Source: a virus (lineage: Duplodnaviria; Heunggongvirae; Uroviricota; Caudoviricetes). From it: a DNA stretch of 64,000 nucleotides. This document shows, in pieces, positions 4,621-39,516 of the stretch; within the stretch, counting starts at the first letter, position 1; each line of letters begins with the position of its first letter. The translations under genes and the position numbers were made by a program. The notes beneath the pieces were generated by a model that made no database searches, was not told the DNA's origin, and saw nothing but the letters and a program-made list of their open reading frames with translations. Where the stretch lies: the IMG/VR virus record IMGVR_UViG_3300046507_000426, one strand, 5' to 3'.

Positions 4621-5484
4621 TCACTCGCCTTCGAGAATCGCTTTGATACCACTTATCGTTGTACGACAACCGGCTGAGTTAGGATGGCCACCACCACCGT
4701 ACTTCTTGGCAATTGCACTGACATCAACGCCTGAGCCCTGTTTTGAGCGTAGTGACAGAATCACTGTGTTGTCATTGAGTACAAACCAACATACACCGAC
4801 GTCAACGTTCAGCGTTTCATCAGAGTACATCGCATGGCCCATCTCTGACACAAGCTGACCCGTGTTCAGAAAACCACACTTGTAACCTTCCCAGTTTACA
4901 ACCTTGACATTACGTGGCACTTGAGCTTCGACCGCTGCCTGATCACGTTCAAGAAGGATTTCACCAGTATCCACAAGGTCTTGTAGAACATTCTCATTAG
5001 ACGCGTATTTGTTCCAAAGAGGCATGTTGCCTTTTAATGTTCCAAGGCCAGCATGAATAAGTTTGCTGTCATTCCCGAACTTGAACTTCCAAAGATCTCG
5101 ATCTTGAACATATTGCAATAGCATCGGAACCGAATCATCGGGATGAAAGTAGTTCCATGCAATTACAGCCCCGCTCCGTTCCATGTCAAACACGACTTCG
5201 ACCTTGGGATGATTACAGCCCTCCAGAGCCTCTCGTGCGGTCTGATGATGGTCGAGTACCACAACCTTGCCACAAGCCTCTCCAAGGGCCTCTAATTCAG
5301 TCCTAGAGGTACTGTAGTCCAGAAAGAATACTTCAGTTTCTGATCCACGTTCAAAATCAGGCAAAGGCTTACCGTACTGACAGGCTAAATAAATAGCCTT
5401 ATCCCCGAACTTTTTCCATGCTGCATATTTGCTGCCGGTACCATCCATGCAGTCTTTGTGATAGAGAATTACTGTGTTTGTCAT
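4621..5484 (-). CDS. DHH/DHHA1 family phosphoesterase (NrnA-like nanoRNase / pAp phosphatase-like)
   Basis: 287 aa; N-terminal DHH-like region (LYHKDCMDG...), C-terminal DHHA1 GGGH motif (KKYGGGGHPNSAG). Confidence 0.6.
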   Translation of the reverse strand: MTNTVILYHKDCMDGTGSKYAAWKKFGDKAIYLACQYGKPLPDFERGSETEVFFLDYSTSRTELEALGEACGKVVVLDHHQTAREALEGCNHPKVEVVFDMERSGAVIAWNYFHPDDSVPMLLQYVQDRDLWKFKFGNDSKLIHAGLGTLKGNMPLWNKYASNENVLQDLVDTGEILLERDQAAVEAQVPRNVKVVNWEGYKCGFLNTGQLVSEMGHAMYSDETLNVDVGVCWFVLNDNTVILSLRSKQGSGVDVSAIAKKYGGGGHPNSAGCRTTISGIKAILEGE

Positions 5485-6307: not shown

Positions 6308-6626
6308 AAAAACTGGACAAACACAAAAACCCGCAAAGCCTTACCCAGCTTGGCTTTCAGAGCTTCGTGTCCAATTTGTCCAAAAAATAAAATGAAACTG
6401 GACAACCGCAAACCTATGTCCAGCTTGGGTTTCAGAGGATTTGTCCAATTGTCCAGAAAAAATTTTCAACCATACCTCACTTTCTAATTGAGTCACACAT
6501 CTTTTTACAAAACCCACAATACCTCTCTTATATATAAATATATTTTTTAAAAAGTTCAAATATTATATATATATAAGACCCCCGGATTCCTAGACACTGA
6601 GGGTAAACCCTATGTTTTTATTTTCT
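6308..6626. repeat. Copy A of 316+ bp near-identical direct repeat (copy B at 63685-64000) containing TGGACAA/TTGTCCA iterons and an AT-rich core
   Basis: Direct alignment of 6308-6626 with 63685-64000 gives about 96% identity; contains ttgtccaatttgtcc, tttgtccaattgtccag, and tatatataaatatattttttaaaaagttcaaatattatatatatataag. Confidence 0.85.
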
Positions 6627-6664
6627 AGTAAATTTATTGTGAAAAAGGAAGTGAGGTATGGTTG
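6467..6664. repeat. 14-bp perfect inverted repeat (CAACCATACCTCAC ... GTGAGGTATGGTTG) flanking a ~170 bp AT-rich core
   Basis: 6467-6480 caaccatacctcac and 6651-6664 gtgaggtatggttg are exact reverse complements; the AT-rich tract lies between them. Confidence 0.7.
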
Positions 6665-6830
6665 AGAAAAAAAACTGGACAATTGGACAAATCGTCTAGA
6701 ACTCAAGCCCGATAAGGCTTTGCGGCTGTCCAATAGTGCAAAGTGAAATTGGACAAATTGGACACGTAGCCAGCAAACCCAATACCAGTAAGGCTTTCAG
6801 AGATTTGGGATTTGTCCAGTTTTTTCAAAG
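6660..6830. repeat. Continuation of iteron array (paired TGGACAA repeats) downstream of repeat copy A
   Basis: actggacaattggacaaatcg, ggctgtccaatag, aaattggacaaattggacacg, atttgtccag; 12 or more copies of the 7-mer in about 550 bp. Confidence 0.6.
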
Positions 6831-7116: not shown

Positions 7117-8739
7117 TTAGATACGTCCAGCTATAAATTCAGACATGAAACGCGGCGTCTGCGTATCGAAGCCCACAACATCAAGCATGTTCGGATCCTT
7201 GGGATCTGCGATGCTGAAGTCATTGACTGCCATACCGACTACGATCAGCTTTGCATCAGGCTTGTTCATGCCTTGGCGATACTTTTGCATGGCTTGGAAC
7301 GGATGCTGTCTACCAGCATACGTCTCGTTGTCCGTATAGATACAGAACGCATCCACGTTCCAACGGTGTGCAAGCGCATGTTCAGCAGGCAAAGCACAGT
7401 TCGTAGAACCGAAGTTCCAGTCATGCGCCTTGGTGGTAGCCGATTCAAGCGTATCGTGCTTCGTGATGTTCAGCGGCTTGAACGTCTTAGCGAAGCCCAA
7501 CACTTCAGTCCAAGGTTCCGTACGAGCCGAAACCATAGCCATCAGTGCAGCACCTTCACAACACGTCAACTGCGGAACACCCGGAATAGCCGAACCCATT
7601 GAACCTGACACGTCAAGCGCCAGAACAATATTCTTACCAGACGGTTCCACCGCGTCGAACGAAAGGTAGAACGCCGCTTCAAGCGTATCCTTGACGGTAT
7701 TATCCGGGGTCCAAACCAGCGAACCCTTATCGCCCTTGCCTTGAGAGTAGATCTTCTTAGCAACGATAATCGACATCGGATGCAGACGTTCCTTACGAAG
7801 CTGTTCCACATCCAGAAGCTTGGTCGTGACCAGCTTACTCGTTTCCGAGAAAGGCTTGATCAGTCCAACAGCCGTCAGCTTGTTCAGGTTACGAACCAAT
7901 GCATTCAGGCCCATATGCGGAACGAGTGCTTCCCAAATCTTCGGGTCATTCTTTTGCTCATTAGGGATCATTTCATGCGTCAGCTTGTGATCCTGAATCA
8001 GGTTGACAAGTGCGCTGCCGCTAGCAGTCTTGGCTTCTTCAACTGCAATCAGAAGCTCAGGAACCTGGTCACCCAGAGCAAGTGCTTCCGGACCCTTCAC
8101 GATGTACTTGTAAAGGTTTTGACGAACCGTGTCTTCACCAGGCTTCACATGCGACAGACGCATAACGTCCTTGTGCGACCAACCATCACGTTGCTTGTAC
8201 TTCACAACCTGATAGGCGAGATTCGTCACAGTCTTGTCCGCATACCACTTCTGTGCAACGTTCTTAAGCGAACGACCCCAACCTCTAAGTCCATTCGCAA
8301 ATGCAACGAAGTGCAGGAAGTGCGTGCCAGTACGAGCCACGAGGTTCACTTTGTCCTTGGCATACAGTTTCGTAGCCACGTCACCGTGAGTGAAGACCAA
8401 CGCCATAGCAAGCAACGCGTAGTCATTGTTCTTGGCACGACCAGCCTGGCTGATCTCAACGATACGGTCGACCACAACCTTACCATTCGTTTGGATCAAC
8501 TTGACGATATCGTCGACCTTGGCCTTGGTGATATCTTTCTCGGACTGATAGAACGTACCACCGCTCGTACCGATGATCAGGAAACGATCGAGCTTCTGCA
8601 GAGGCGTTACCTCAAACACAAAGCCGCCAGCGTTGTTCTTTACTTGAGCGACAGAAGCATTACCAGCCGGTTTGGTCTGAACCGTAGTCTTTGCTTGAGT
8701 GCGGGTGTTGGTATTGTTAGAGAGGGAATTGAAAGACAT
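7117..8739 (-). CDS. rsr: Ro60/Rsr orthologue (TROVE domain plus C-terminal vWA/MIDAS domain)
   Basis: 540 aa; the N-terminal region matches the TROVE domain as I remember it; C-terminal NIVLALDVSGSMGS (DxSGS MIDAS motif) is vWA-like; domain order and size match Ro60/Rsr. Confidence 0.75.
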   Translation of the reverse strand: MSFNSLSNNTNTRTQAKTTVQTKPAGNASVAQVKNNAGGFVFEVTPLQKLDRFLIIGTSGGTFYQSEKDITKAKVDDIVKLIQTNGKVVVDRIVEISQAGRAKNNDYALLAMALVFTHGDVATKLYAKDKVNLVARTGTHFLHFVAFANGLRGWGRSLKNVAQKWYADKTVTNLAYQVVKYKQRDGWSHKDVMRLSHVKPGEDTVRQNLYKYIVKGPEALALGDQVPELLIAVEEAKTASGSALVNLIQDHKLTHEMIPNEQKNDPKIWEALVPHMGLNALVRNLNKLTAVGLIKPFSETSKLVTTKLLDVEQLRKERLHPMSIIVAKKIYSQGKGDKGSLVWTPDNTVKDTLEAAFYLSFDAVEPSGKNIVLALDVSGSMGSAIPGVPQLTCCEGAALMAMVSARTEPWTEVLGFAKTFKPLNITKHDTLESATTKAHDWNFGSTNCALPAEHALAHRWNVDAFCIYTDNETYAGRQHPFQAMQKYRQGMNKPDAKLIVVGMAVNDFSIADPKDPNMLDVVGFDTQTPRFMSEFIAGRI

Positions 8740-8759
8740 GTTAAGGCTCCTTGAGGAAC

Positions 8760-9165
8760 AAAGTTTAACTGACTAAAAAAAGAAGGTCTGAAAGCCGAAG
8801 CTAACAGACCTTTGGACTTACCTCATGTGGTGTTAAGAAGAACCATGCTGCAGCTCTTCCCCGGGGTACGACGGGTACCCCCAGCTCGTGCTCCTGGAGC
8901 ACATCCCAGTCAGCGAAGCTGAACCGATATCTGACAGAGTTACTCTATCATCGTTTCATTGAAACAAAATACGTAAGTCTTGGTGTTGCGGGGTTATGAC
9001 CTAACCTCATTGCCCGTTCTGGGGCAGATCTCCTCATCGCCTCCGGGTAGTGCAGCGTAGGTCGTGTAGTGCGAAGCACGTAACGAACGTAGCGGAACGG
9101 ACCGGTGGCAGATTTAACCAGGAAGTTGCTCCCTGACTACCAACATACTACTTGGTTACATACGA
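8760..9165 (-). ncRNA. Structured non-coding region immediately upstream of rsr; candidate Y-RNA-like RNA(s)
   Basis: About 400 bp without ORFs; hairpins GGGGTAC-gacgg-GTACCCC (8869-8890) and GTGCTCC-tgg-AGCAC; a GGTCCG element on the minus strand near 9085; Y RNA genes usually sit next to rsr. Confidence 0.3.
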
Positions 9166-9169
9166 AAGG

Positions 9170-9616
9170 TCATTTTTTACTGCGTCTGTATCTTTTTACA
9201 CAATCTTTACATTGACTGTCTATCCCACTATGTCGGGTTCTGTTTTTCCAAAATTCAGAAATTGGTTTAAACGTTTTACACGAGAAACATTCTTGTTTAC
9301 CATCTACTATATTTTTTCGAGTACTCTCGTAGAATTCTTTTCTAGGTTTATTACATTTGAGATGTGAAAATGCAATGTTGTCTATATCCCAGAATAATTC
9401 AGAACCTACATCTAACCAATCTTTTTTATGCTCAATGCTAAGTTCATTTTCTGTTTCAATATCTTTTGAGCATTTAAAACATATATTTTCTCGGTGTCTG
9501 ACTAATAGAGAAAACATTACTTTTTTTTTGAGCTTATTTGTGGCGGTACCAAACGGCATACCTAACTGTTGTGATTTTTTAGAATTTGAATTAGTTGACA
9601 TGCTAAATACTAGCAA
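9170..9616 (-). CDS. HNH homing endonuclease
   Basis: 148 aa; Cys-rich with SIEHKKDWLD...NIAFSHLKCNKP HNH-type motifs; embedded in the non-coding RNA region. Confidence 0.6.
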   Translation of the reverse strand: MLVFSMSTNSNSKKSQQLGMPFGTATNKLKKKVMFSLLVRHRENICFKCSKDIETENELSIEHKKDWLDVGSELFWDIDNIAFSHLKCNKPRKEFYESTRKNIVDGKQECFSCKTFKPISEFWKNRTRHSGIDSQCKDCVKRYRRSKK

Positions 9617-9729
9617 TGTATAAAACTGAAGTGAGCAAATGAAATTGATCTGGAGGAAATCTTAAAAGGATAATCCAAATCTGAACGGCTCACAAACTTG
9701 AAGCTGAACAAAGAGTGTACTGCGCGTTT

Positions 9730-10430
9730 TACGCGTTATACCAGTTTAACTACAGCACAACCAAGAACACAGAATGCTCTTAATTGTGCCGTCAGGATTC
9801 GAACCTGAAATACGTCCTGATAATGGAGATAACACAATACTAGCGGTTCAGCATAAACGGAAGACGAACAAGAGGTGCAAGGGAGATGGTCTTTCGACCT
9901 AACAGTTTTCACCAATTGAAGTTTGTAGATAACCCTACGCTTTCGGTTCGTCGTGAAACTTGATACGAGCAAGGATTGTCAAGGAGATGCAGGCTTCACC
10001 CGCGATAGCTTTAGCTCAAGCAGAGTACAACGGTGTTAGACCTAGGTACTATTCCGTTTCCGGAAACTGCGTAGTACGCTTTATTCTAACTTTGGCTTAG
10101 TAGATAACCTTGAACATTCGGCTCGTGAAACTGATATGGGCAAAGGGTTGAAATGGAATTGGAGGCGGCTGTCTTTACCAATTTGACTAAACCCAACTTA
10201 ATGGGTTACAGGACTCGAACCTGTATATCGCTGCTTGGGGTTAACCCATTTCTACGGCCCATGAACTTTAATTCCAAAACAGTCAATACGACTGCTTCAG
10301 GATTAAAGCGGGAAGTGAACAAAAAGCATAACTAGGAGGTTCTTAGCAATAGATAACCTAGTTAAATACGGCTCACTAAATCTATTATACCACTAAAACG
10401 AAATTTATTGAAAGAGCAAGTTTATGAACT
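9730..10430 (-). ncRNA. Cluster of 2-3 paralogous non-coding RNA units with tRNA-like modules (acceptor-like stem plus canonical T-arm, D-arm-like hairpin); candidate Y-RNA-like (Yrl) RNAs
   Basis: Minus-strand T-arms TCAGG-TTCGAAT-CCTGA (plus 9794-9810) closed by ATTGTG/CACAAT, and ACAGG-TTCGAGT-CCTGT (plus 10219-10235) closed by ATGGGTT/AACCCAT, the latter followed by a D-arm-like GTC-AAATTGGTAAA-GAC; conserved box TAGATAACC...(T)TCGG(C/T)TCG/AC...GAAAC at three sites (about 9926, 10101, 10351); no ORFs over about 1.3 kb (9620-10930). Confidence 0.4.
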
Positions 10431-11039
10431 TGGATAAAATGCGAAGTGTTAGTCCGCGAGGCGGTAACCCAAATTCGTCGGCTCTATTAGTTTGAACTCA
10501 TTCTGCTACGAAGACGAAGCTTAAGTACATCCGGATACCCATCTGGGGAGGTGAACCTGGTCTCATCGACGACTCAGAATTTGCCTTTACCCAGCCACAA
10601 GCTGGGTAATGGTTTTGCTTTTCGCTGTGTGTGCGAGAAGCGTAGAGCACTGTTACAGATACTCTCTGTCCCGTTGTTTTCAACCAATAGATGGCCTTCC
10701 ACAATGACAGTTTAATACTTCAAACTTCTGCTTTGGCAGAGCTACGAAAACTCTGCTTTACTGCTAGTGTACCATGACGTACTCATGTTTACTACTATTC
10801 ACATCTCTGGTACCTGGACGGGGGGCCGCCACCGGTGACATCCTCATCTCGGCGAAGACATCTCGTGTCTCCGCTCCAGCTGTAAGCTGGGCGGGAGACA
10901 ACTTGAAGCTTGTTGCAAACTTCTAGTAACGTTGTCGTTACAAAATACTAAGTCATGTAAGCAATTCTGCAAGGTAACCCTGGTTGCTCATTCAGGGCAG
11001 GAGAACGGACCTTACTTCCGCATGCAACTTGTTCTTGTG

Positions 11040-19756: not shown

Positions 19757-21154
19757 TCAGATTGCTGCGTTGCGACGTACATCGCTAAAAGACTGGTCAC
19801 GAATCAAAACACCATTCGCATATACAGGTTCCAACAGATCTACACGACCCATAGCATTTTCACGACGAATCGTGGTCAACACTCCGTCATTATCTTCGAC
19901 TAGTGCAAGATGTCCGCGCTTGCTGGTCTTGCCACCAGCGATCGGATCCTTGTACACGTCCAGCCATTTACCATCGACACAGACAGACGATGCCTTCATT
20001 GCAAACGAAAGCGTGTCACGGTCAAGCTTTTGATGCAACGCTCCGCCCATGCCGAATGCAACGTTCTCGGCGCTGAATCCAGCCAACTTAAGAGCAGCAA
20101 GAATTTTCTCGATGCTTTCAGGGTTTACACCATCACCTTGAATGACGCGGACCTTGTTCAGGACCTTAAAGCCTTTCGAGTTAACACTGTAACCGAACGC
20201 ATCGGCCAGTAGCCCGACCACCGTAGAAACGACAGATACAGGTTCACCAGAATCTGGACGAACCACAAGAGTACCAGGTTGGGCCAGGACAAAGTCACGA
20301 AGCTCTCCGCCCCAGATATTTTTAACAGCGTTAAAGATATCGTAGCTATCACTGACAACAGCGAATAGGCCTTGGCCGAATTTTTCGCACATATTTCTAT
20401 AAGCGTCAGCTTCGTGCGTACGCCCCCAACTAGTAATAGTGGAATGCTCAGCAGCGGGAATAGAATAACCCAATCCATTGTAGTCAGCTCCGTAAAATTG
20501 ATGTGCATATTCCAGGCCCAACATAGTGTCGGTACCCATGAAATTAATCAGGTGAGCTGCTCCCGCGATTGCCGACGTTTCGGTCGAGCTTGCCCCACGT
20601 GCGCCAAAGTCATGAAGCTTGAAGGGCATTTCGTCGAGCGGCTTATCGCACGTATCGACAAGGTACTTGAAGATGATCTCTTTACAGTGCCTCGAAATTG
20701 AAGCCACCGTAGTACCGAACCACGCTGCACGAAGGATCTGGGTTTCGAAGAACGAACCGATCCAAGGCATTTCTTCGTCAGTAGACATGACATCCACTAA
20801 TATATTCGACATCGGTACTTGCAAGCCTTCCGGGACTGCGCGGATCACCATCGGAGCATGACCACCATGCACTTTTACCAGGCGATCAAATTCTTTCTTA
20901 GCGAAGGGCTCCCCGTGAATAGAATTGACCTTCATTGCGTACTCGACATGCTCAGCGGTGATTGCGTTGAGCAAGTAATCCTTGATGTAACCTTGCAGAC
21001 CAAAGAACGTGGAGTTCTTGATTCCGAACCCGCTGTTGTCCTTGCGTGCTTCTACGTAAGAGTAAAGACCGGTAGTGCCTTTCGGGTATTGGAGAAAATG
21101 TGAATGCTTGTAAGAGTCAGCATTCAGGAGGGGATTGATTTTAAAGTTTGACAT
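19757..21154 (-). CDS. nadV: Nicotinamide phosphoribosyltransferase (NadV/NAMPT)
   Basis: 465 aa; N-terminal NPLLNADSYKHSHF matches the NAMPT signature; size typical. Confidence 0.85.
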   Translation of the reverse strand: MSNFKINPLLNADSYKHSHFLQYPKGTTGLYSYVEARKDNSGFGIKNSTFFGLQGYIKDYLLNAITAEHVEYAMKVNSIHGEPFAKKEFDRLVKVHGGHAPMVIRAVPEGLQVPMSNILVDVMSTDEEMPWIGSFFETQILRAAWFGTTVASISRHCKEIIFKYLVDTCDKPLDEMPFKLHDFGARGASSTETSAIAGAAHLINFMGTDTMLGLEYAHQFYGADYNGLGYSIPAAEHSTITSWGRTHEADAYRNMCEKFGQGLFAVVSDSYDIFNAVKNIWGGELRDFVLAQPGTLVVRPDSGEPVSVVSTVVGLLADAFGYSVNSKGFKVLNKVRVIQGDGVNPESIEKILAALKLAGFSAENVAFGMGGALHQKLDRDTLSFAMKASSVCVDGKWLDVYKDPIAGGKTSKRGHLALVEDNDGVLTTIRRENAMGRVDLLEPVYANGVLIRDQSFSDVRRNAAI

Positions 21155-21206
21155 GATTTTTTAACGCCTCGTTAAATTAAAGTTGCCTACTCTTTGTAGG
21201 ACTTGG

Positions 21207-22355
21207 TTAAATACCGACCAGCTTGCGAATAATGGAAAGATGATCTTCGTAGATCTTATCTGCCATCTTCAGGATTTCGTCGTACGTGAAGAACTTGGCA
21301 TCTGCTGCGTCGTCTCCAGCTTTGATCTTGGGGATTCCAGCTTTCTTATCCGCCCGGTCAAGATCAAAGAGAAAAGCATGGGTAAAAGTACGCCCACGCA
21401 GACTGCGATTAGGATGGTCAAAAACAACGCCTTCGCCCATAGAACCAAGCAACAGATTAGGAGGAAGATCAAGGCTAGTTTCTTCTTTGAGTTCACGAAG
21501 CGCCGCATCTTTAAGTCTCTCATTCTGTTCTACGAATCCGCCTGGCAATGCCCATAATCCTTCACCCGGCGCGGCTTTGCGCTTCACAAGGAGAATGTGT
21601 CCAGCCTTCTTCACTACTGCATCTACAGTAACAAACGTAGGTGCATACGGAGCTGCCTTCCAAGCTTCCTTATACTTCTTGACCATCTGATACTCACGAG
21701 ACAGACGGTAGTATTCCGGAGACTTGATGAAGTCTTTCAGAAAGTCGAAAGTGTACGTAGGAACAAGGCTTTTCAACAGATCGATGAATCCTGGCTTTTC
21801 GAAAATGATTTCCCGAATCGACGTAGCGTCAAATCCGAGTTTCACTTCATCTACCGGAACATAGTCATATTGCGGGAACAGATCGAGATAATACGAACTC
21901 TCGTCTTTCTTATTGCCGACAATCGCAACCTTGATAGGTTTACGTTTTTCAACAGGAGTTGAAGCATCGTGCAAAGGGGTGTAGTATGCGATTTTTTCCT
22001 GAACTTGCTTTGCCCAGTCATCGTCGGAATACATATTATCAACCAAAGCTTCGGTATTAAACCGACCTTCGTTGATAGTGCCGATCTCTTCCTGCGTAAG
22101 AGACATAGCAATCATCGTCGCACGTTCATCGTACGTGAAAGGATTCTTGATGGTGCGGGGGGCGTTTGCAGACCCAATCAATACAAGAACACGATCAGCG
22201 ATCAGCATTCCTTTATTGACGAGAATCTGGTGACCAACATGGTAGGGTTCAAAGCGACCCATTACTACTGCAAGATCATATTCTTTGGGTTTACGTTCCG
22301 TAGAAATGATTTCATACTGCTGCACGATTTCGTGCTTAAGGGACATAATTGACAT
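21207..22355 (-). CDS. nadM: Bifunctional NMN adenylyltransferase / Nudix hydrolase (NadM-Nudix)
   Basis: VVMGRFEPYHVGH carries the (H/T)xGH nucleotidyltransferase motif; C-terminal GGFVEQNERLKDAALRELKEETSL is the Nudix box; pairing with nadV as in KVP40-type phages. Confidence 0.8.
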   Translation of the reverse strand: MSIMSLKHEIVQQYEIISTERKPKEYDLAVVMGRFEPYHVGHQILVNKGMLIADRVLVLIGSANAPRTIKNPFTYDERATMIAMSLTQEEIGTINEGRFNTEALVDNMYSDDDWAKQVQEKIAYYTPLHDASTPVEKRKPIKVAIVGNKKDESSYYLDLFPQYDYVPVDEVKLGFDATSIREIIFEKPGFIDLLKSLVPTYTFDFLKDFIKSPEYYRLSREYQMVKKYKEAWKAAPYAPTFVTVDAVVKKAGHILLVKRKAAPGEGLWALPGGFVEQNERLKDAALRELKEETSLDLPPNLLLGSMGEGVVFDHPNRSLRGRTFTHAFLFDLDRADKKAGIPKIKAGDDAADAKFFTYDEILKMADKIYEDHLSIIRKLVGI

Positions 22356-25389: not shown

Positions 25390-25584
25390 AAACTTCTCTG
25401 GTGGACCTGACGAGATTCTCACTCGCAGATACGACTCCGCGTATGCCAGATTACGTGAGTTCGGCTCACTATGGCTCAGGCCCATTGGGATATTGTTGGA
25501 GCGGGTTGCGAGCAATGATCTCGCCTCGTCGGTTTGGAAAACCGCTGCACATCCATCTATACCAAACCCGCATTGTAAAACTTG
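25390..25584 (-). ncRNA. Promoter-proximal structured leader / possible small RNA upstream of tRNA-Arg
   Basis: TTGGTATAG promoter-like motif (plus ctataccaa, about 25552-25560); hairpins GCGAG-atcattg-CTCGC; box GTTCGGCTCACTATGG shared with the 9.7-10.4 kb ncRNA units. Confidence 0.3.
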
Positions 25585-26300: not shown

Positions 26301-26478
26301 ATTATGTGGTAGGGCTACAGGGTACTGACCCCTATTCTACGGATTAAAAGTCCGTTGCTTCACCTTAAAGCTTTAACCCCACAAATGAAAGCTAGTATAC
26401 ATTGCTTTGAGAAGACCCACAAGGAGTCTTTCCAAAACAAGCTAGGCTCCTTGTGAGAGCCCAGCCGTTTACTTACGC

Positions 26479-38072: not shown

Positions 38073-38142
38073 TAACAAAAGGGGGATACGAGCCCCCAGC
38101 CTCACAAGAGTATGTGCGCTCTACCAATTGAGCTATTTTGTT
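38073..38142 (-). ncRNA. tRNA-like RNA with canonical acceptor, D- and T-arms but a 6-nt anticodon loop
   Basis: Acceptor AACAAAA/TTTTGTT, D-arm GCTC-AATTGGTA-GAGC, T-arm GGGGG-CTCGTAT-CCCCC, anticodon region CACA-TACTCT-TGTG. Confidence 0.35.
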
Positions 38143-39440: not shown

Positions 39441-39516
39441 TGGTAGGAACATCGGGGCTCGAACCCGAGACCTTCAGATTTAGAATCCGCTGCTCTGCCA
39501 ACTGAGCTATATTCCC
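39441..39516 (-). tRNA. tRNA with anticodon CTA (putative amber suppressor)
   Basis: Acceptor GGGAATA/TGTTCCT, D-arm GCTC-AGTTGGCA-GAGC, A26, anticodon arm GCGGA-TTCTAAA-TCTGA (U33, anticodon C34-U35-A36, A37), T-arm TCGGG-TTCGAGC-CCCGA, A73-CCA. Confidence 0.5.

What the first reader, a model, noticed from the sequence alone, without database searches (positions are those of the whole stretch)
7117..10930. Ro60/Rsr orthologue flanked by about 1.7 kb of ORF-free sequence carrying repeated tRNA-like modules: candidate Y-RNA-like (Yrl) RNAs
The 540-aa protein has the TROVE plus vWA (DxSGS) architecture of Ro60/Rsr. In bacteria and phages, rsr is characteristically next to Y RNA genes, and YrlA-type Y RNAs contain a tRNA-mimicking domain. 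Directly upstream on the same strand there are no protein genes apart from one HNH endonuclease. Two units carry canonical T-arms (GGTTCGAATCC, GGTTCGAGTCC) closed by 6-7 bp acceptor-like stems but lack a normal anticodon arm. A D-arm-like hairpin (GTC-AAATTGGTAAA-GAC) follows one T-arm, giving a permuted tRNA-like layout. A conserved box TAGATAACC...TTCGGCTCGTGAAAC occurs three times, and a related box GTTCGGCTCAC occurs upstream of tRNA-Arg at about 25455.
Basis: partly seen in the sequence, partly recalled or inferred. Interest (0 to 1): 0.8.

Follow-up and report, generated by a model that had tools for sequence, protein, structure and literature searches.

The report
Phage Ro60 gene with Y-RNA array
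An uncultivated, probably soil-borne phage carries a Ro60/Rsr RNA-binding protein gene preceded by seven small structured RNA genes in a row, two of them tRNA mimics; they match the Y RNAs known to partner this protein, so the locus is well supported but is an already described kind.

Summary
ORF 7117-8739(-) is a Ro60/Rsr orthologue (TROVE plus Ro60-vWA domains, DVSGS motif).

The upstream ORF-free DNA runs to 11039, about 1.85 kb without the HNH gene.

It is the 5' strand of a two-helix stem shared by seven tandem units, U1-U7 (10486-9631, minus strand):
- Layout: H1, CCG, H2, UUAUC, a variable body, H2', YUUU, H1'.
- Both helices covary strongly, in this clade and in 74 divergent Rsr-encoding viral contigs. 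There the units lie almost only on the rsr strand.
- U3 and U6 carry a T arm, an acceptor-like hairpin and a D arm in YrlA order, with a covarying 15:48 pair.
- The other five units have different bodies.

A conserved TGGTATAAT promoter sits 8 nt before U2, and a terminator sits just before rsr. The HNH gene occupies the place of a third tRNA-like unit present in relatives.

Rfam YrlA scores are below threshold (23 and 19 bits), but so are those of the published phage examples.

Phage rsr plus Y RNAs has been described since 2014, so this is a new member of a known kind. Two further structured regions, A and D1/D2, remain unexplained.

The parts
7117..8739 (-). rsr: Ro60/Rsr orthologue, 540 aa, with a TROVE ring and a Ro60-type vWA domain carrying a DVSGS MIDAS motif
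   Evidence: Pfam vWA_Ro60 1.2e-57 and TROVE 1.3e-36. PDB 2nvo 2e-111, 9nen 3e-100, 1yvp 4e-98. PHROG 850 1e-83.
8775..8812 (-). Intrinsic-terminator-like hairpin plus U7 run, 35 nt before the rsr start codon. The AAGGAG ribosome-binding site lies between them.
   Evidence: Inverted repeat I13. Predicted as a terminal hairpin in the fold of 8775-9171. The sequence is conserved in all relatives.
8815..9171 (-). Region D: two paralogous structured modules, D1 (9171-8980) and D2 (8979-8815). Each is closed by a helix (GACYUU.../...GAGGUNAGGUC) and contains a covarying hairpin and a conserved uAGAG-UAA-CUCUa hairpin. Function unknown.
   Evidence: RNAalifold. The D1 HMM hits D2 and the reverse, at E 1e-3 to 2e-6. 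Fold z-score -2.9. Not coding. Not found outside this clade.
9170..9616 (-). Free-standing HNH endonuclease ORF. It sits where relatives carry a third YrlA-type unit, and in three of the four distinct relatives also a T-arm-only unit.
   Evidence: phrog_23251 3.5e-18. Pfam HNH 5e-4, below cut-off. Synteny with L001 and L003.
9631..9693 (-). U7: short Y-like unit of 63 nt. H1 GUGAGC/GCUCAC, H2 GAUUUGGA/UCCAGAUC, pyrimidine-rich loop beginning UUAUCC.
   Evidence: HMM E 6.6e-5. The MFE fold reproduces H1 and H2, z -2.96. Covariation.
9704..9851 (-). U6: YrlA-type unit of 148 nt. H1 CUGAAC/GUUCAG, H2 GUAUUGUG/CGCAGUAC, T arm 9808-9792, 18-bp acceptor-like hairpin, UA linker, D arm 9750-9735.
   Evidence: Rfam YrlA 23.3 bits, E 0.023. 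HMM E 1.8e-4. Anatomy and A15:U48 pair. Fold z -4.65.
9864..9951 (-). U5: 88-nt unit, H1 ACGAAC/GUUCGU. It looks like a partial duplicate of U4 and is the weakest unit.
   Evidence: HMM E 3.6e-4. Duplication seen in blastn. Fold not better than shuffles, z -0.76.
9965..10126 (-). U4: 162-nt unit with the full GCCGAAUG (GNCGAANG) motif and a three-hairpin body that is not tRNA-like.
   Evidence: HMM E 5.9e-5. The RNAalifold consensus recovers H1, H2 and the inner hairpins, with compensatory changes.
10136..10262 (-). U3: YrlA-type unit of 127 nt. H1 AUGGGC/GCCCAU, H2 GAAAUGGG/UCCAUUUC, T arm 10224-10208, AACCC/GGGUU hairpin, D arm 10187-10171.
   Evidence: Rfam YrlA 18.6 bits, E 0.55. The MFE fold shows H1, H2 and the T, AS and D elements. 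HMM E 7.5e-3. Ortholog covariation.
10266..10308 (-). Conserved 19-bp hairpin between U2 and U3. The outer stem is conserved and the inner stem varies between phages. Possible processing site (inference).
   Evidence: Inverted repeat I2. Sequence comparison with L001 and L003.
10315..10376 (-). U2: short Y-like unit of 62 nt. H1 GUGAGC/GUUCAC, H2 UAACUAGG/CCUAGUUA. It starts about 8 nt after the -10 box.
   Evidence: HMM E 2.9e-4. MFE fold z -3.13.
10384..10413 (-). Sigma-70-like promoter TTTCAA-N15-TGGTATAAT (18-nt spacer counting the TGG of the extended -10). It is conserved in all five distinct loci.
   Evidence: It is one of only three TGnTATAAT sites in the 64-kb window. The generic scan did not call it because the -35 matches only 3 of 6.
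10412..10486 (-). U1: 75-nt unit upstream of the promoter. H1 is 5 bp (AGAGC/GCUCU), H2 GAAUUUGGG/UCCAAGUUC.
   Evidence: HMM E 7.6e-3. MFE fold. Orthologs in all relatives.
10499..11039 (-). Region A: 541-nt conserved structured non-coding region with long-range helices. Function unknown.
   Evidence: Fold -185 kcal/mol against -153 +/- 7 for shuffles, z -4.6. RNAalifold gives 114 pairs, 41 with compensatory changes. The HMM finds it only in this clade. No Rfam hit.

Best explanation
This is a phage rsr (Ro60) locus with a tandem array of seven Y-RNA genes, on the minus strand.

Unit architecture. Every unit has the same stem module:
- a 5-7 bp terminal helix, H1;
- the bulge 'CG' plus a few nucleotides on the 5' side, facing a pyrimidine-rich YUUU stretch on the 3' side;
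- a 6-10 bp helix, H2;
- an unpaired UUAUC.
This is the layout of the Ro60-binding stem of known Y RNAs: GGUC|CGA in vertebrates and GNCGAA in bacterial YrlA. The distal part differs between units. It is a tRNA mimic in U3 and U6, a small pyrimidine-rich loop in U2 and U7, a three-hairpin domain in U4, and other bodies in U1 and U5.

Inferred mechanism (not shown):
- The conserved TGGTATAAT promoter starts a precursor at the first base of U2.
- The precursor is cut in the roughly 10-nt spacers, and perhaps at the long hairpin.
- Most transcripts stop at the terminator before rsr. Read-through supplies rsr mRNA.
- Phage Rsr binds the common stem, and the variable modules tether it to different partners, as Y RNAs tether Ro60 to PNPase. 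For the mimics the partners would be tRNA-binding proteins.
- The effect would be to redirect RNA decay or repair in the infected cell.

Shown here: the gene, the unit anatomy, the covariation, and the strand-specific co-occurrence with rsr. Inferred: transcription, processing, Rsr binding and the effectors.
For: Protein identity.

Seven units, and only here: an HMM trained on relatives alone finds seven hits and nothing else in the window.

Stem covariation in this clade (33 distinct units): 98.2% of cells paired against 71.8% in shuffles. There are 111 double changes against 31, and the score is 0.806 against 0.269, with 0 of 500 shuffles as high. Slid controls give 26-43% paired.

Stem covariation in 79 distinct units from 74 divergent Rsr-encoding viral contigs: 94.6% against 64.8% paired, 322 against 101 double changes, 0 of 500 shuffles as high.

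H2 length: mean 7.35 bp against 4.53 with a shuffled 3' window.

Association with rsr: 43 of 80 Rsr loci carry at least one unit on the rsr strand, against 1 of 80 on the opposite strand. Of 86 units, 64 lie upstream of rsr, at a median of 317 nt.

Link to the published Rsr-binding motif: in the broad set 43 of 86 units read CCGAA and 28 of 86 match the full GNCGAAN0-1G (motif from PMC4201824). The published YrlA phage ET08 has three units with the same box.

tRNA mimicry: T, AS and D order, UA linker, R15:Y48 covariation. YrlA is the best Rfam family.

Single-sequence folds recover H1 and H2.

Promoter and terminator are conserved.
Against: There are no expression, processing or binding data.

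Rfam YrlA hits in the window are partial and far below the gathering score: 23 and 19 bits against 69.

Only one of the seven units (U4) has the full GNCGAANG motif. The others keep only G(N)CCG.

The metazoan Y_RNA model gives no hit.

U5 does not fold better than shuffles.

H1 and H2 partners were chosen for complementarity, so the paired percentages are inflated. The HMM test, the strand bias, the slid controls and the shuffled-window null address this only in part.

Rsr loci such as Atu_ph07 and Beuffert show no such units nearby, so the link is not obligatory.

The terminator would limit rsr expression if read-through is poor.
Confidence: 0.8

Rival explanations
1. The tRNA-like units are stand-alone tRNA decoys or sponges. 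They would divert host tRNA-targeting nucleases or modification enzymes and work without Rsr. On this reading the neighbourhood with rsr reflects only the clustering of RNA genes in tRNA-rich phages.
For: The phage carries more than 20 tRNA genes. In jumbo-phage contigs the units are interspersed with tRNA genes. The T and D loops keep the tRNA tertiary nucleotides. Some Rsr phages lack such units near rsr.
Against: The non-tRNA-like units share exactly the same stem module. That module carries the published Rsr-binding motif in half of the broad set. Units sit on the rsr strand in 43 of 80 Rsr loci, at a median of 317 nt upstream. Rsr itself is rare in phages: 377 of 50,697 records.
Confidence: 0.08
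2. The array is a cis-acting 5' leader of the rsr mRNA. Repeated structured elements plus an attenuator terminator would tune rsr expression, and no trans-acting RNPs would be released.
For: There is no room for a promoter between the terminator at 8775 and the start codon at 8739, so rsr must be read through from upstream. The terminator is conserved.
Against: Units are discrete and are closed by their own terminal helices with short spacers. Their number, order and content vary between relatives: 7 in the window against 8-9. In other phages they also lie downstream of rsr, 21 of 86. In M. smegmatis, YrlA and YrlB are processed from such an upstream precursor (PMC4201824).
Confidence: 0.07
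3. The box is a DNA-level signal, such as a repeated phage promoter, an operator or a recombination site, and the T arms are decayed tRNA genes.
For: The box precedes the HNH ORF as well as the RNAs.
Against: Each half of the box pairs with a cognate downstream sequence, with compensatory changes in 10 of 12 pairs. A DNA-binding site would not require that. The hexamers match sigma-70 poorly, and a separate conserved TGGTATAAT promoter exists. The HMM finds no copy elsewhere in 64 kb of gene-dense phage DNA. The order T, AS, D is permuted relative to tRNA and is conserved. ARAGORN and the Rfam tRNA model call nothing here.
Confidence: 0.03

Closest known systems
YrlA / YrlB Y RNAs of bacteria and actinophages (Rfam RF02553; Chen et al. 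2014, PMC4201824), for example Mycobacteriophage ET08 and M. smegmatis
   Same: They are encoded within a few hundred nt of rsr on the same strand. They have a 5'/3' terminal stem with a G-N-C-G(-A-A) element near the 5' end. The tRNA-like domain has T, acceptor-like and D arms in that order, with a covarying 15:48 pair. Short hairpin Y RNAs with a pyrimidine-rich loop accompany them (YrlB type). They are made from an upstream polycistronic precursor. ET08 itself shows three tandem units with the same AGGCCG-N9-10-CGGTTAYC box.
   Different: There are seven units, and 8-9 in close relatives, against the one or two described per locus. Only one unit keeps the full GNCGAANG motif. At least four kinds of distal module occur. 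Scores are 19-23 bits against a gathering score of 69, although ET08 itself reaches only 37.
Thermus phage phiLo phiRo60 with Yrl1 and Yrl2 (PMC12135203, 2025)
   Same: A phage-encoded Ro60 has Y-RNA-like genes directly upstream. In that system the CGAA-containing bulged stem binds the protein, and a complex with host PNPase was shown in vitro.
   Different: The proteins are only distantly related: 9kop matches at E 1e-7, against 1e-111 for D. radiodurans Rsr. phiLo has two units, not seven, and the passages read report no tRNA-like module for it.
Metazoan Y RNAs (human Y1 and Y4; Rfam RF00019)
   Same: The layout and spacing of the 5' half are the same: lower stem ending ..GGUC, then CGA, a 9-10-nt upper-stem strand ending in GG, then GUUAUC opening the loop. 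Human Y1 reads GGCUGGUCCGAAGGUAGUGAGUUAUC and Y4 reads GGCUGGUCCGAUGGUAGUGGGUUAUC; both strings were verified in the literature. On the 3' side a pyrimidine-rich stretch is followed by UUUG and the lower-stem strand. The window's Rsr is almost as close to vertebrate Ro60 as to bacterial Rsr.
   Different: The RF00019 model gives no hit. The resemblance covers about 14 nt plus the architecture, and was noticed after the fact. Metazoan Y RNAs are separate Pol III genes, not an array, and have no tRNA-like domain.
D. radiodurans rsr locus (Yrn1, Yrn2 and RNAs a, b, d)
   Same: Several small RNAs are encoded upstream of rsr and are co-transcribed, in that case together with a tRNA. Some carry T-arm-like hairpins. 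Y RNA tethers Rsr to PNPase.
   Different: That is a chromosomal, stress-induced locus. Its units do not share one repeated stem module in tandem.

Membership tests
Ro60/Rsr protein family | TROVE (HEAT-repeat ring) domain | tested here: met
   Pfam TROVE 1.3e-36, above its cut-off.
Ro60/Rsr protein family | C-terminal Ro60-type vWA domain with a MIDAS DxSGS motif | tested here: met
   Pfam vWA_Ro60 1.2e-57, residues 371-536. DVSGS is present in the translation.
Ro60/Rsr protein family | Full-length similarity to structurally characterised Ro60/Rsr | tested here: met
   2nvo 2.3e-111 over residues 30-539, 9nen 2.5e-100, 1yvp 3.6e-98.
YrlA (Rfam RF02553) | Score at or above the Rfam gathering threshold (69 bits) | tested here: not met
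   23.3 and 18.6 bits, partial matches to model positions 29-81. Relatives score 30-45 bits full length. The published phage example ET08 scores only 37.4 and Cashline 42.2, so the threshold excludes known phage members too.
YrlA (Rfam RF02553) | Encoded within about 4 kb of rsr on the same strand | tested here: met
   U3 and U6 lie 1.0-1.5 kb upstream of rsr on the minus strand. The strand bias is 43 of 80 loci against 1 of 80 across viral Rsr loci.
YrlA (Rfam RF02553) | tRNA-like domain: T arm, then acceptor-like hairpin, then UA, then D arm with GG | tested here: met
   Anatomy table. cmscan alignments. Compensatory changes in the T and AS stems.
YrlA (Rfam RF02553) | Levitt pair 15:48 kept as G:C or A:U by compensatory change | tested here: met
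   A15:U48 in W_U6 and L003_b, against G15:C48 in the orthologous L007_d. All 10 correctly parsed units form R15:Y48. U3 itself was checked only by eye.
YrlA (Rfam RF02553) | Terminal stem formed by the 5' and 3' ends | tested here: met
   H1 and H2 covariation.
YrlA (Rfam RF02553) | GNCGAAN0-1G motif near the 5' end (putative Rsr contact) | tested here: inconclusive
   The full motif occurs only in U4 (GCCGAAUG). U5 reads ACCGAAAG and the others keep GCCG or ACCG followed by U/A/C. In the wider phage family 28 of 86 units have the full motif and 43 of 86 have CCGAA at the same position.
YrlA (Rfam RF02553) | Bound by Rsr; carries Psi55 and dihydrouridine | not testable with these tools
   Needs co-immunoprecipitation and modification mapping.
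Canonical (metazoan-type) Y RNA, RF00019 | Match to the covariance model | tested here: not met
   No hit at E <= 10, even in a 921-nt search.
Canonical (metazoan-type) Y RNA, RF00019 | Lower stem, bulge with CCGA, upper stem, loop; about 60-130 nt | tested here: met
   Units are 62-162 nt with H1, a CG bulge, H2 and a loop. The 5'-half layout equals that of human Y1 and Y4.
tRNA genes | Cloverleaf with an anticodon arm, called by ARAGORN or Rfam tRNA | tested here: not met
   Neither tool calls a tRNA between 8740 and 11039. The arm order is permuted.

The most novel reading that the evidence does not exclude
Many phages may encode not one or two Y RNAs but modular 'toolkits': tandem arrays of 3-10 units. 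These would share one Ro60-binding stem, whose GGUUAUC/CCG layout is the same as in human Y1 and Y4, and would differ in their effector modules. Each unit would then send phage Rsr to a different partner.

In this clade the array is also co-transcribed with two new classes of structured RNA: the 541-nt region A and the paired roughly 180-nt D modules. These could be further Rsr ligands or substrates.

I found no description of such arrays in the literature I could read.
Probability: 0.3. Interest if true: 0.6.

Novelty: new member of a known kind. Interest (0 to 1): 0.42.

Why it matters
Ro60 and Y RNAs are conserved from bacteria to humans, where Ro60 is a lupus and Sjogren autoantigen. What the variable 'effector' half of a Y RNA does is still largely unknown.

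This locus puts seven Y-like RNAs side by side, with one common protein-binding stem and at least four different distal modules. That makes it a natural experiment on modularity. It could be expressed as a 2.3-kb cassette together with its own Rsr, to find which partners each module recruits.

The analysis also gives a simple sequence-and-structure signature: H1, CCG, 9-10 nt, GGUUAYC ... YUUG, H1'. This signature finds Y-like units that the Rfam YrlA model misses, including non-tRNA-like ones, in at least 43 of 80 Rsr-encoding viral contigs.

None of this changes the category. Phage rsr with adjacent Y RNAs has been known since 2014.

Tried and rejected
- Box as a sigma-70 or phage promoter. 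Rejected, because both halves pair with cognate downstream strands and covary. A separate conserved promoter exists.
- HNH ORF inside a group I intron, or a HEARO-type RNA. No Rfam hit. Synteny shows a simple replacement of a unit.
- Regions A and D as GOLLD, ROOL, tmRNA, a ribozyme or a riboswitch. No Rfam match at E <= 10.
- Regions A and D as small protein genes. The ORFs are not conserved, and region D has at least 3 stops in each frame.
- D-module motif search in IMG/VR. It gave 66 matches, at or below my rough chance expectation. Only the known relatives have two copies, and the HMM finds no family member elsewhere.
- First box search in IMG/VR. Mostly chance single matches, but it happened to recover divergent Rsr loci.
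- A metagenome scan added only one new relative, L007.
- MAFFT alignments could not register H2, and RNAalifold saw only H1. I therefore anchored H2 at the UUAUC motif and counted pairs on fixed-length extracts. This selection inflates the pairing percentages; controls are.
- An automated D-arm parser mis-assigned three 'a'-type units, including U3. Those D arms were read by eye from alignment A1.
- The 25455 'related box' is not a member.
- I did not run protein-database homology searches, structure prediction or a custom covariance model. The question did not need them.

Full report
**The protein**

ORF 7117-8739 (minus strand, 540 aa) is a Ro60/Rsr orthologue. It matches Pfam vWA_Ro60 (1.2e-57) and TROVE (1.3e-36) and PHROG 850 (1e-83). 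It aligns over its full length to D. radiodurans Rsr 2nvo (2e-111) and to human and Xenopus Ro60 (3e-100 and 4e-98). The Thermus phage phiRo60 is far more distant (1e-7). The MIDAS motif reads DVSGS.

**The genome context**

The window is phage-like:
- It has more than 20 tRNA genes.
- It encodes dUTPase, ThyX, NAMPT, NadM-Nudix, a YqeY-like protein and a DHH phosphoesterase.
- It has no close DNA relative among 50,697 deposited phages.
- The best deposited Rsr homologues are actinophage proteins at 43% identity or less.

Nine related loci were found in IMG/VR and one soil metagenome, with Rsr 74-77% identical. They collapse to four distinct sequences: L001, L003, L004 and L007.

**The ORF-free region**

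On the rsr strand, no conserved ORF lies between the stop of a 67-aa gene (11040) and the rsr start (8739), except an HNH endonuclease (9170-9616; phrog_23251, 3.5e-18). Relatives lack the HNH gene and show the same ORF-poor 2.2-2.3 kb. Their occasional ORFs there are not conserved at protein level.

**What the box is**

Reading the relatives' sequences showed that it is not a free-standing element. The 6 nt ending in the first C of CCG are complementary to 6 nt that follow a YUUU stretch 50-160 nt downstream. The complement changes together with them:
- GTGAGC/GCTCAC
- ATGGGC/GCCCAT in the window, against ATGGAC/GTCCAT in L001
- ACGAGC/GCTCGT
- CTGAAC/GTTCAG
- ACGGGC/GCCCGT

The 'spacer' of the box up to GG likewise pairs with a stretch just before the YUUU, for example TAACTAGG/CCTAGTTA, GATTTGGA/TCCAGATC and GTATTGTG/CGCAGTAC.

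Each unit is therefore: H1, CG(+2-7 nt), H2, UUAUC, body, H2', 6-11 pyrimidine-rich nt, H1'.

**How many units, and is it more than chance**

A profile HMM built only from the relatives' 5' modules finds exactly seven hits in the 64-kb window on both strands. Their E-values run from 6e-5 to 8e-3, all between 10486 and 9665 on the minus strand. The next hit has E=4.7.

The seven units are:

| Unit | Coordinates | Length |
|---|---|---|
| U1 | 10486-10412 | 75 nt |
| U2 | 10376-10315 | 62 nt |
| U3 | 10262-10136 | 127 nt |
| U4 | 10126-9965 | 162 nt |
| U5 | 9951-9864 | 88 nt |
| U6 | 9851-9704 | 148 nt |
| U7 | 9693-9631 | 63 nt |

From U3 to U7, spacers of 9-13 nt separate the units.

Pair counts on fixed-length extracts of 33 distinct units from the five phages give the following:
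- 98.2% of cells paired, against 71.8% in shuffles
- 111 double-sided changes, against 31
- covariation score 0.806 against 0.269, with 0 of 500 shuffles as high
- 26-43% paired when the partners are slid

Partners were picked for complementarity, so these percentages are inflated. As a control, anchored H2 length averages 7.35 bp against 4.53 bp when the 3' window is shuffled. H2 of at least 8 bp occurs in 65% of units against 4%.

Minimum-free-energy folds of U1, U2, U3 and U7 recover H1 and H2 on their own. The fold of U6 recovers H1, the T arm and the acceptor-like hairpin, but not H2. U5 does not fold better than shuffles.

**The tRNA-like units**

U3 and U6, with their orthologues, have:
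- a 5-bp T stem with a UUCGARU loop;
- a hairpin of 7-18 bp;
- a UA linker;
- a 3-4-bp D arm with GG in the loop.

That is the permuted order T, acceptor-like, D that defines YrlA. The T and acceptor-like stems show compensatory changes. The tertiary 15:48 pair switches between A:U and G:C, for example in W_U6 against L007_d.

There the hairpin after the T arm covaries instead (AACCC/GGGTT against CTCCGC/GCGGGG).

Rfam has no hit at gathering score. Even so, YrlA is the best family for both modules: 23.3 bits (E 0.023) and 18.6 bits (E 0.55) in a 921-nt search. It gives full-length hits of 30-45 bits in the relatives.

For calibration, the published YrlA phage ET08 scores 37 bits, Gordonia phage Cashline 42 and Streptomyces phage Beuffert 34. 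All are below the threshold of 69.

**Link to Rsr**

A second scan returned 80 Rsr-encoding viral contigs out of 370 detected, mostly 41-48% identical.
- Units defined by the box plus a perfect H1 partner occur on the rsr strand in 43 of 80 loci, and on the opposite strand in 1 of 80.
- Of 86 units in the 74 loci outside this clade, 64 lie upstream of rsr, at a median of 317 nt.
- The 79 distinct stems among them covary: 94.6% against 64.8% paired, 322 against 101 double changes, 0 of 500 shuffles as high.
- In this wider set 43 of 86 units read CCGAA, and 28 of 86 carry the full GNCGAAN0-1G at the H1 junction. The gap to GGTTAYC is 9-10 nt in 81 of 86.

GNCGAAN0-1G is the motif that Chen et al. 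proposed as the Rsr contact, by analogy with the GGUCCGA bound by Xenopus Ro60 (PMC4201824).

ET08 itself has three tandem units with AGGCCG-N9-10-CGGTTAYC, and Cashline has two. The window's clade has a degenerate version: only U4 keeps GCCGAAUG.

Arrays are common in this set. Seventeen of the 80 loci have at least 3 units, and L223 has 10.

**Resemblance to vertebrate Y RNAs**

Human Y1 and Y4 begin GGCUGGUC-CG-A(A/U)GGUAGUG(A/G)-GUUAUC; both strings were verified in the literature. That is the same order and spacing as the phage module, xxGAGC-CG-N9-10(..GG)-GUUAUC. The 3' side is similar too: a pyrimidine-rich stretch, then UUUG, then the lower-stem strand.

This was noticed after the fact, and the RF00019 model gives no hit. 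I treat it as a lead, not a test.

**Expression signals (sequence evidence only)**

- TTTCAA-N15-TGGTATAAT is conserved in all five distinct loci. Its last T lies 8 nt before the first base of U2's H1.
- A conserved hairpin plus U7 run ends 35 nt before the rsr start, and only a ribosome-binding site lies between them.
- U1 and region A lie upstream of that promoter.
- A conserved 19-bp hairpin separates U2 and U3.

The simplest reading is one precursor that starts at U2 and is cut in the spacers. Most transcripts would end at the terminator, and read-through would provide rsr mRNA. This parallels M. smegmatis, where YrlA and YrlB are processed from a precursor upstream of rsr (PMC4201824).

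**The HNH gene**

In L001, L003, L004 and L007, the unit homologous to U7 is followed by a third YrlA-type unit. In L003, L004 and L007 a T-arm-only unit follows that. The sequence GACCTTTCGTAT comes next. In the window the HNH ORF fills that interval, and its stop codon abuts the same GACCTTTCGTAT. A mobile endonuclease gene has replaced part of the array.

**What the rest of the ORF-free DNA is**

Region D (9171-8815) consists of two paralogous modules of about 165-190 nt. HMMs built from one detect the other at E 1e-3 to 2e-6. Each module is closed by an invariant helix and contains a covarying hairpin and a conserved uAGAG-UAA-CUCUa hairpin. The fold z-score is -2.9.

Region A (11039-10499) folds at -185 kcal/mol against -153 +/- 7 for shuffles (z -4.6). 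It shows long-range helices with some compensatory changes.

Neither region matches any Rfam family, and neither is found outside this phage clade. With only four or five distinct sequences the structures are provisional, and their function is unexplained.

**Verdict**

The corrections are these:
- There are seven units, not two or three.
- The box is the common Ro60-binding-type stem.
- Only two units are tRNA-like.
- The tRNA-Arg 'box' is unrelated.
- About 930 nt is other structured RNA.

Phage rsr with Y RNAs was reported in 2014 for 22 phages and studied structurally in 2025 (PMC12135203). This is therefore a new member of a known kind.

The less expected aspects are the size and modular diversity of the array, its frequency in uncultivated phages, the vertebrate-like GGUUAUC layout, and regions A and D. 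These deserve follow-up but rest on computation alone.

Noticed in passing
window 10499-11039 (-): A 541-nt conserved, strongly structured non-coding region lies upstream of the Y-like array (z -4.6). It has long-range helices, no Rfam match, and is found only in this phage clade. It is a candidate new large RNA.
   Followed up: partly
window 8815-9171 (-): Two paralogous structured modules of about 165-190 nt (D1, D2) lie between the HNH gene and the rsr terminator. Each has an invariant closing helix and a uAGAG-UAA-CUCUa hairpin. A looser third copy seems embedded in region A, around 10950-10770. Function unknown.
   Followed up: partly
window 6327-6830: An ORF-free region of about 500 nt lies downstream of rsr and the 79-aa ORF. 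It has two long imperfect inverted repeats (87-nt and 76-nt arms, 76-78% complementary) around an AT-rich (TA)n centre at 6526-6578, and many TTGTCCA(A/G)TT / TGGACAA repeats. It looks like an origin or a divergent regulatory region with iterons.
   Followed up: no
window 39441-39516 (-): A tRNA with anticodon CTA, which ARAGORN labels 'Pyl', scores 60 bits with Rfam tRNA. It is an amber-suppressor-type tRNA in a phage, which could point to TAG read-through or recoding.
   Followed up: no
window 38073-38142 (-) and 26310-26380 (-): Two further tRNA hits from Rfam (49.5 and 45.6 bits) are not called by ARAGORN.
   Followed up: no
window 25448-25466 (-): AGTGAGCCGAACTCAC forms a small hairpin (GTGAG-CCGAA-CTCAC) between tRNA-Gly and tRNA-Arg. 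It shares the GTGAGCCG octamer with U2 and U7 and contains GCCGAA, but it lacks the rest of the module. It is either chance or a minimal relic.
   Followed up: partly
L223 (IMGVR_UViG_3300027852_000034), L074, L047, L250/L255: Unrelated viral contigs, some from 277-405-kb jumbo phages, carry 5-10 units with the same H1-CCG-N9-10-GGTTATC...YTTG-H1' signature. The units sit near rsr or are interspersed with tRNA genes. The Rfam YrlA model sees only some of them, and below threshold.
   Followed up: partly
window 19757-22355 (-) and 4621-5484 (-): NAD salvage genes (NAMPT and a NadM-Nudix fusion) lie here, and a DHH/DHHA1 phosphoesterase lies close to rsr. The latter might act on RNA-decay products (nanoRNA or pAp). 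It is conserved near rsr in the relatives.
   Followed up: no
window 9864-9951 vs 9965-10126 (-): U5 looks like a truncated duplicate of U4. Both align to the same stretch of L001. The window also lacks the short unit 's2' that relatives have between the first tRNA-like unit and the large unit. The array is evolving by duplication, loss and replacement.
   Followed up: partly
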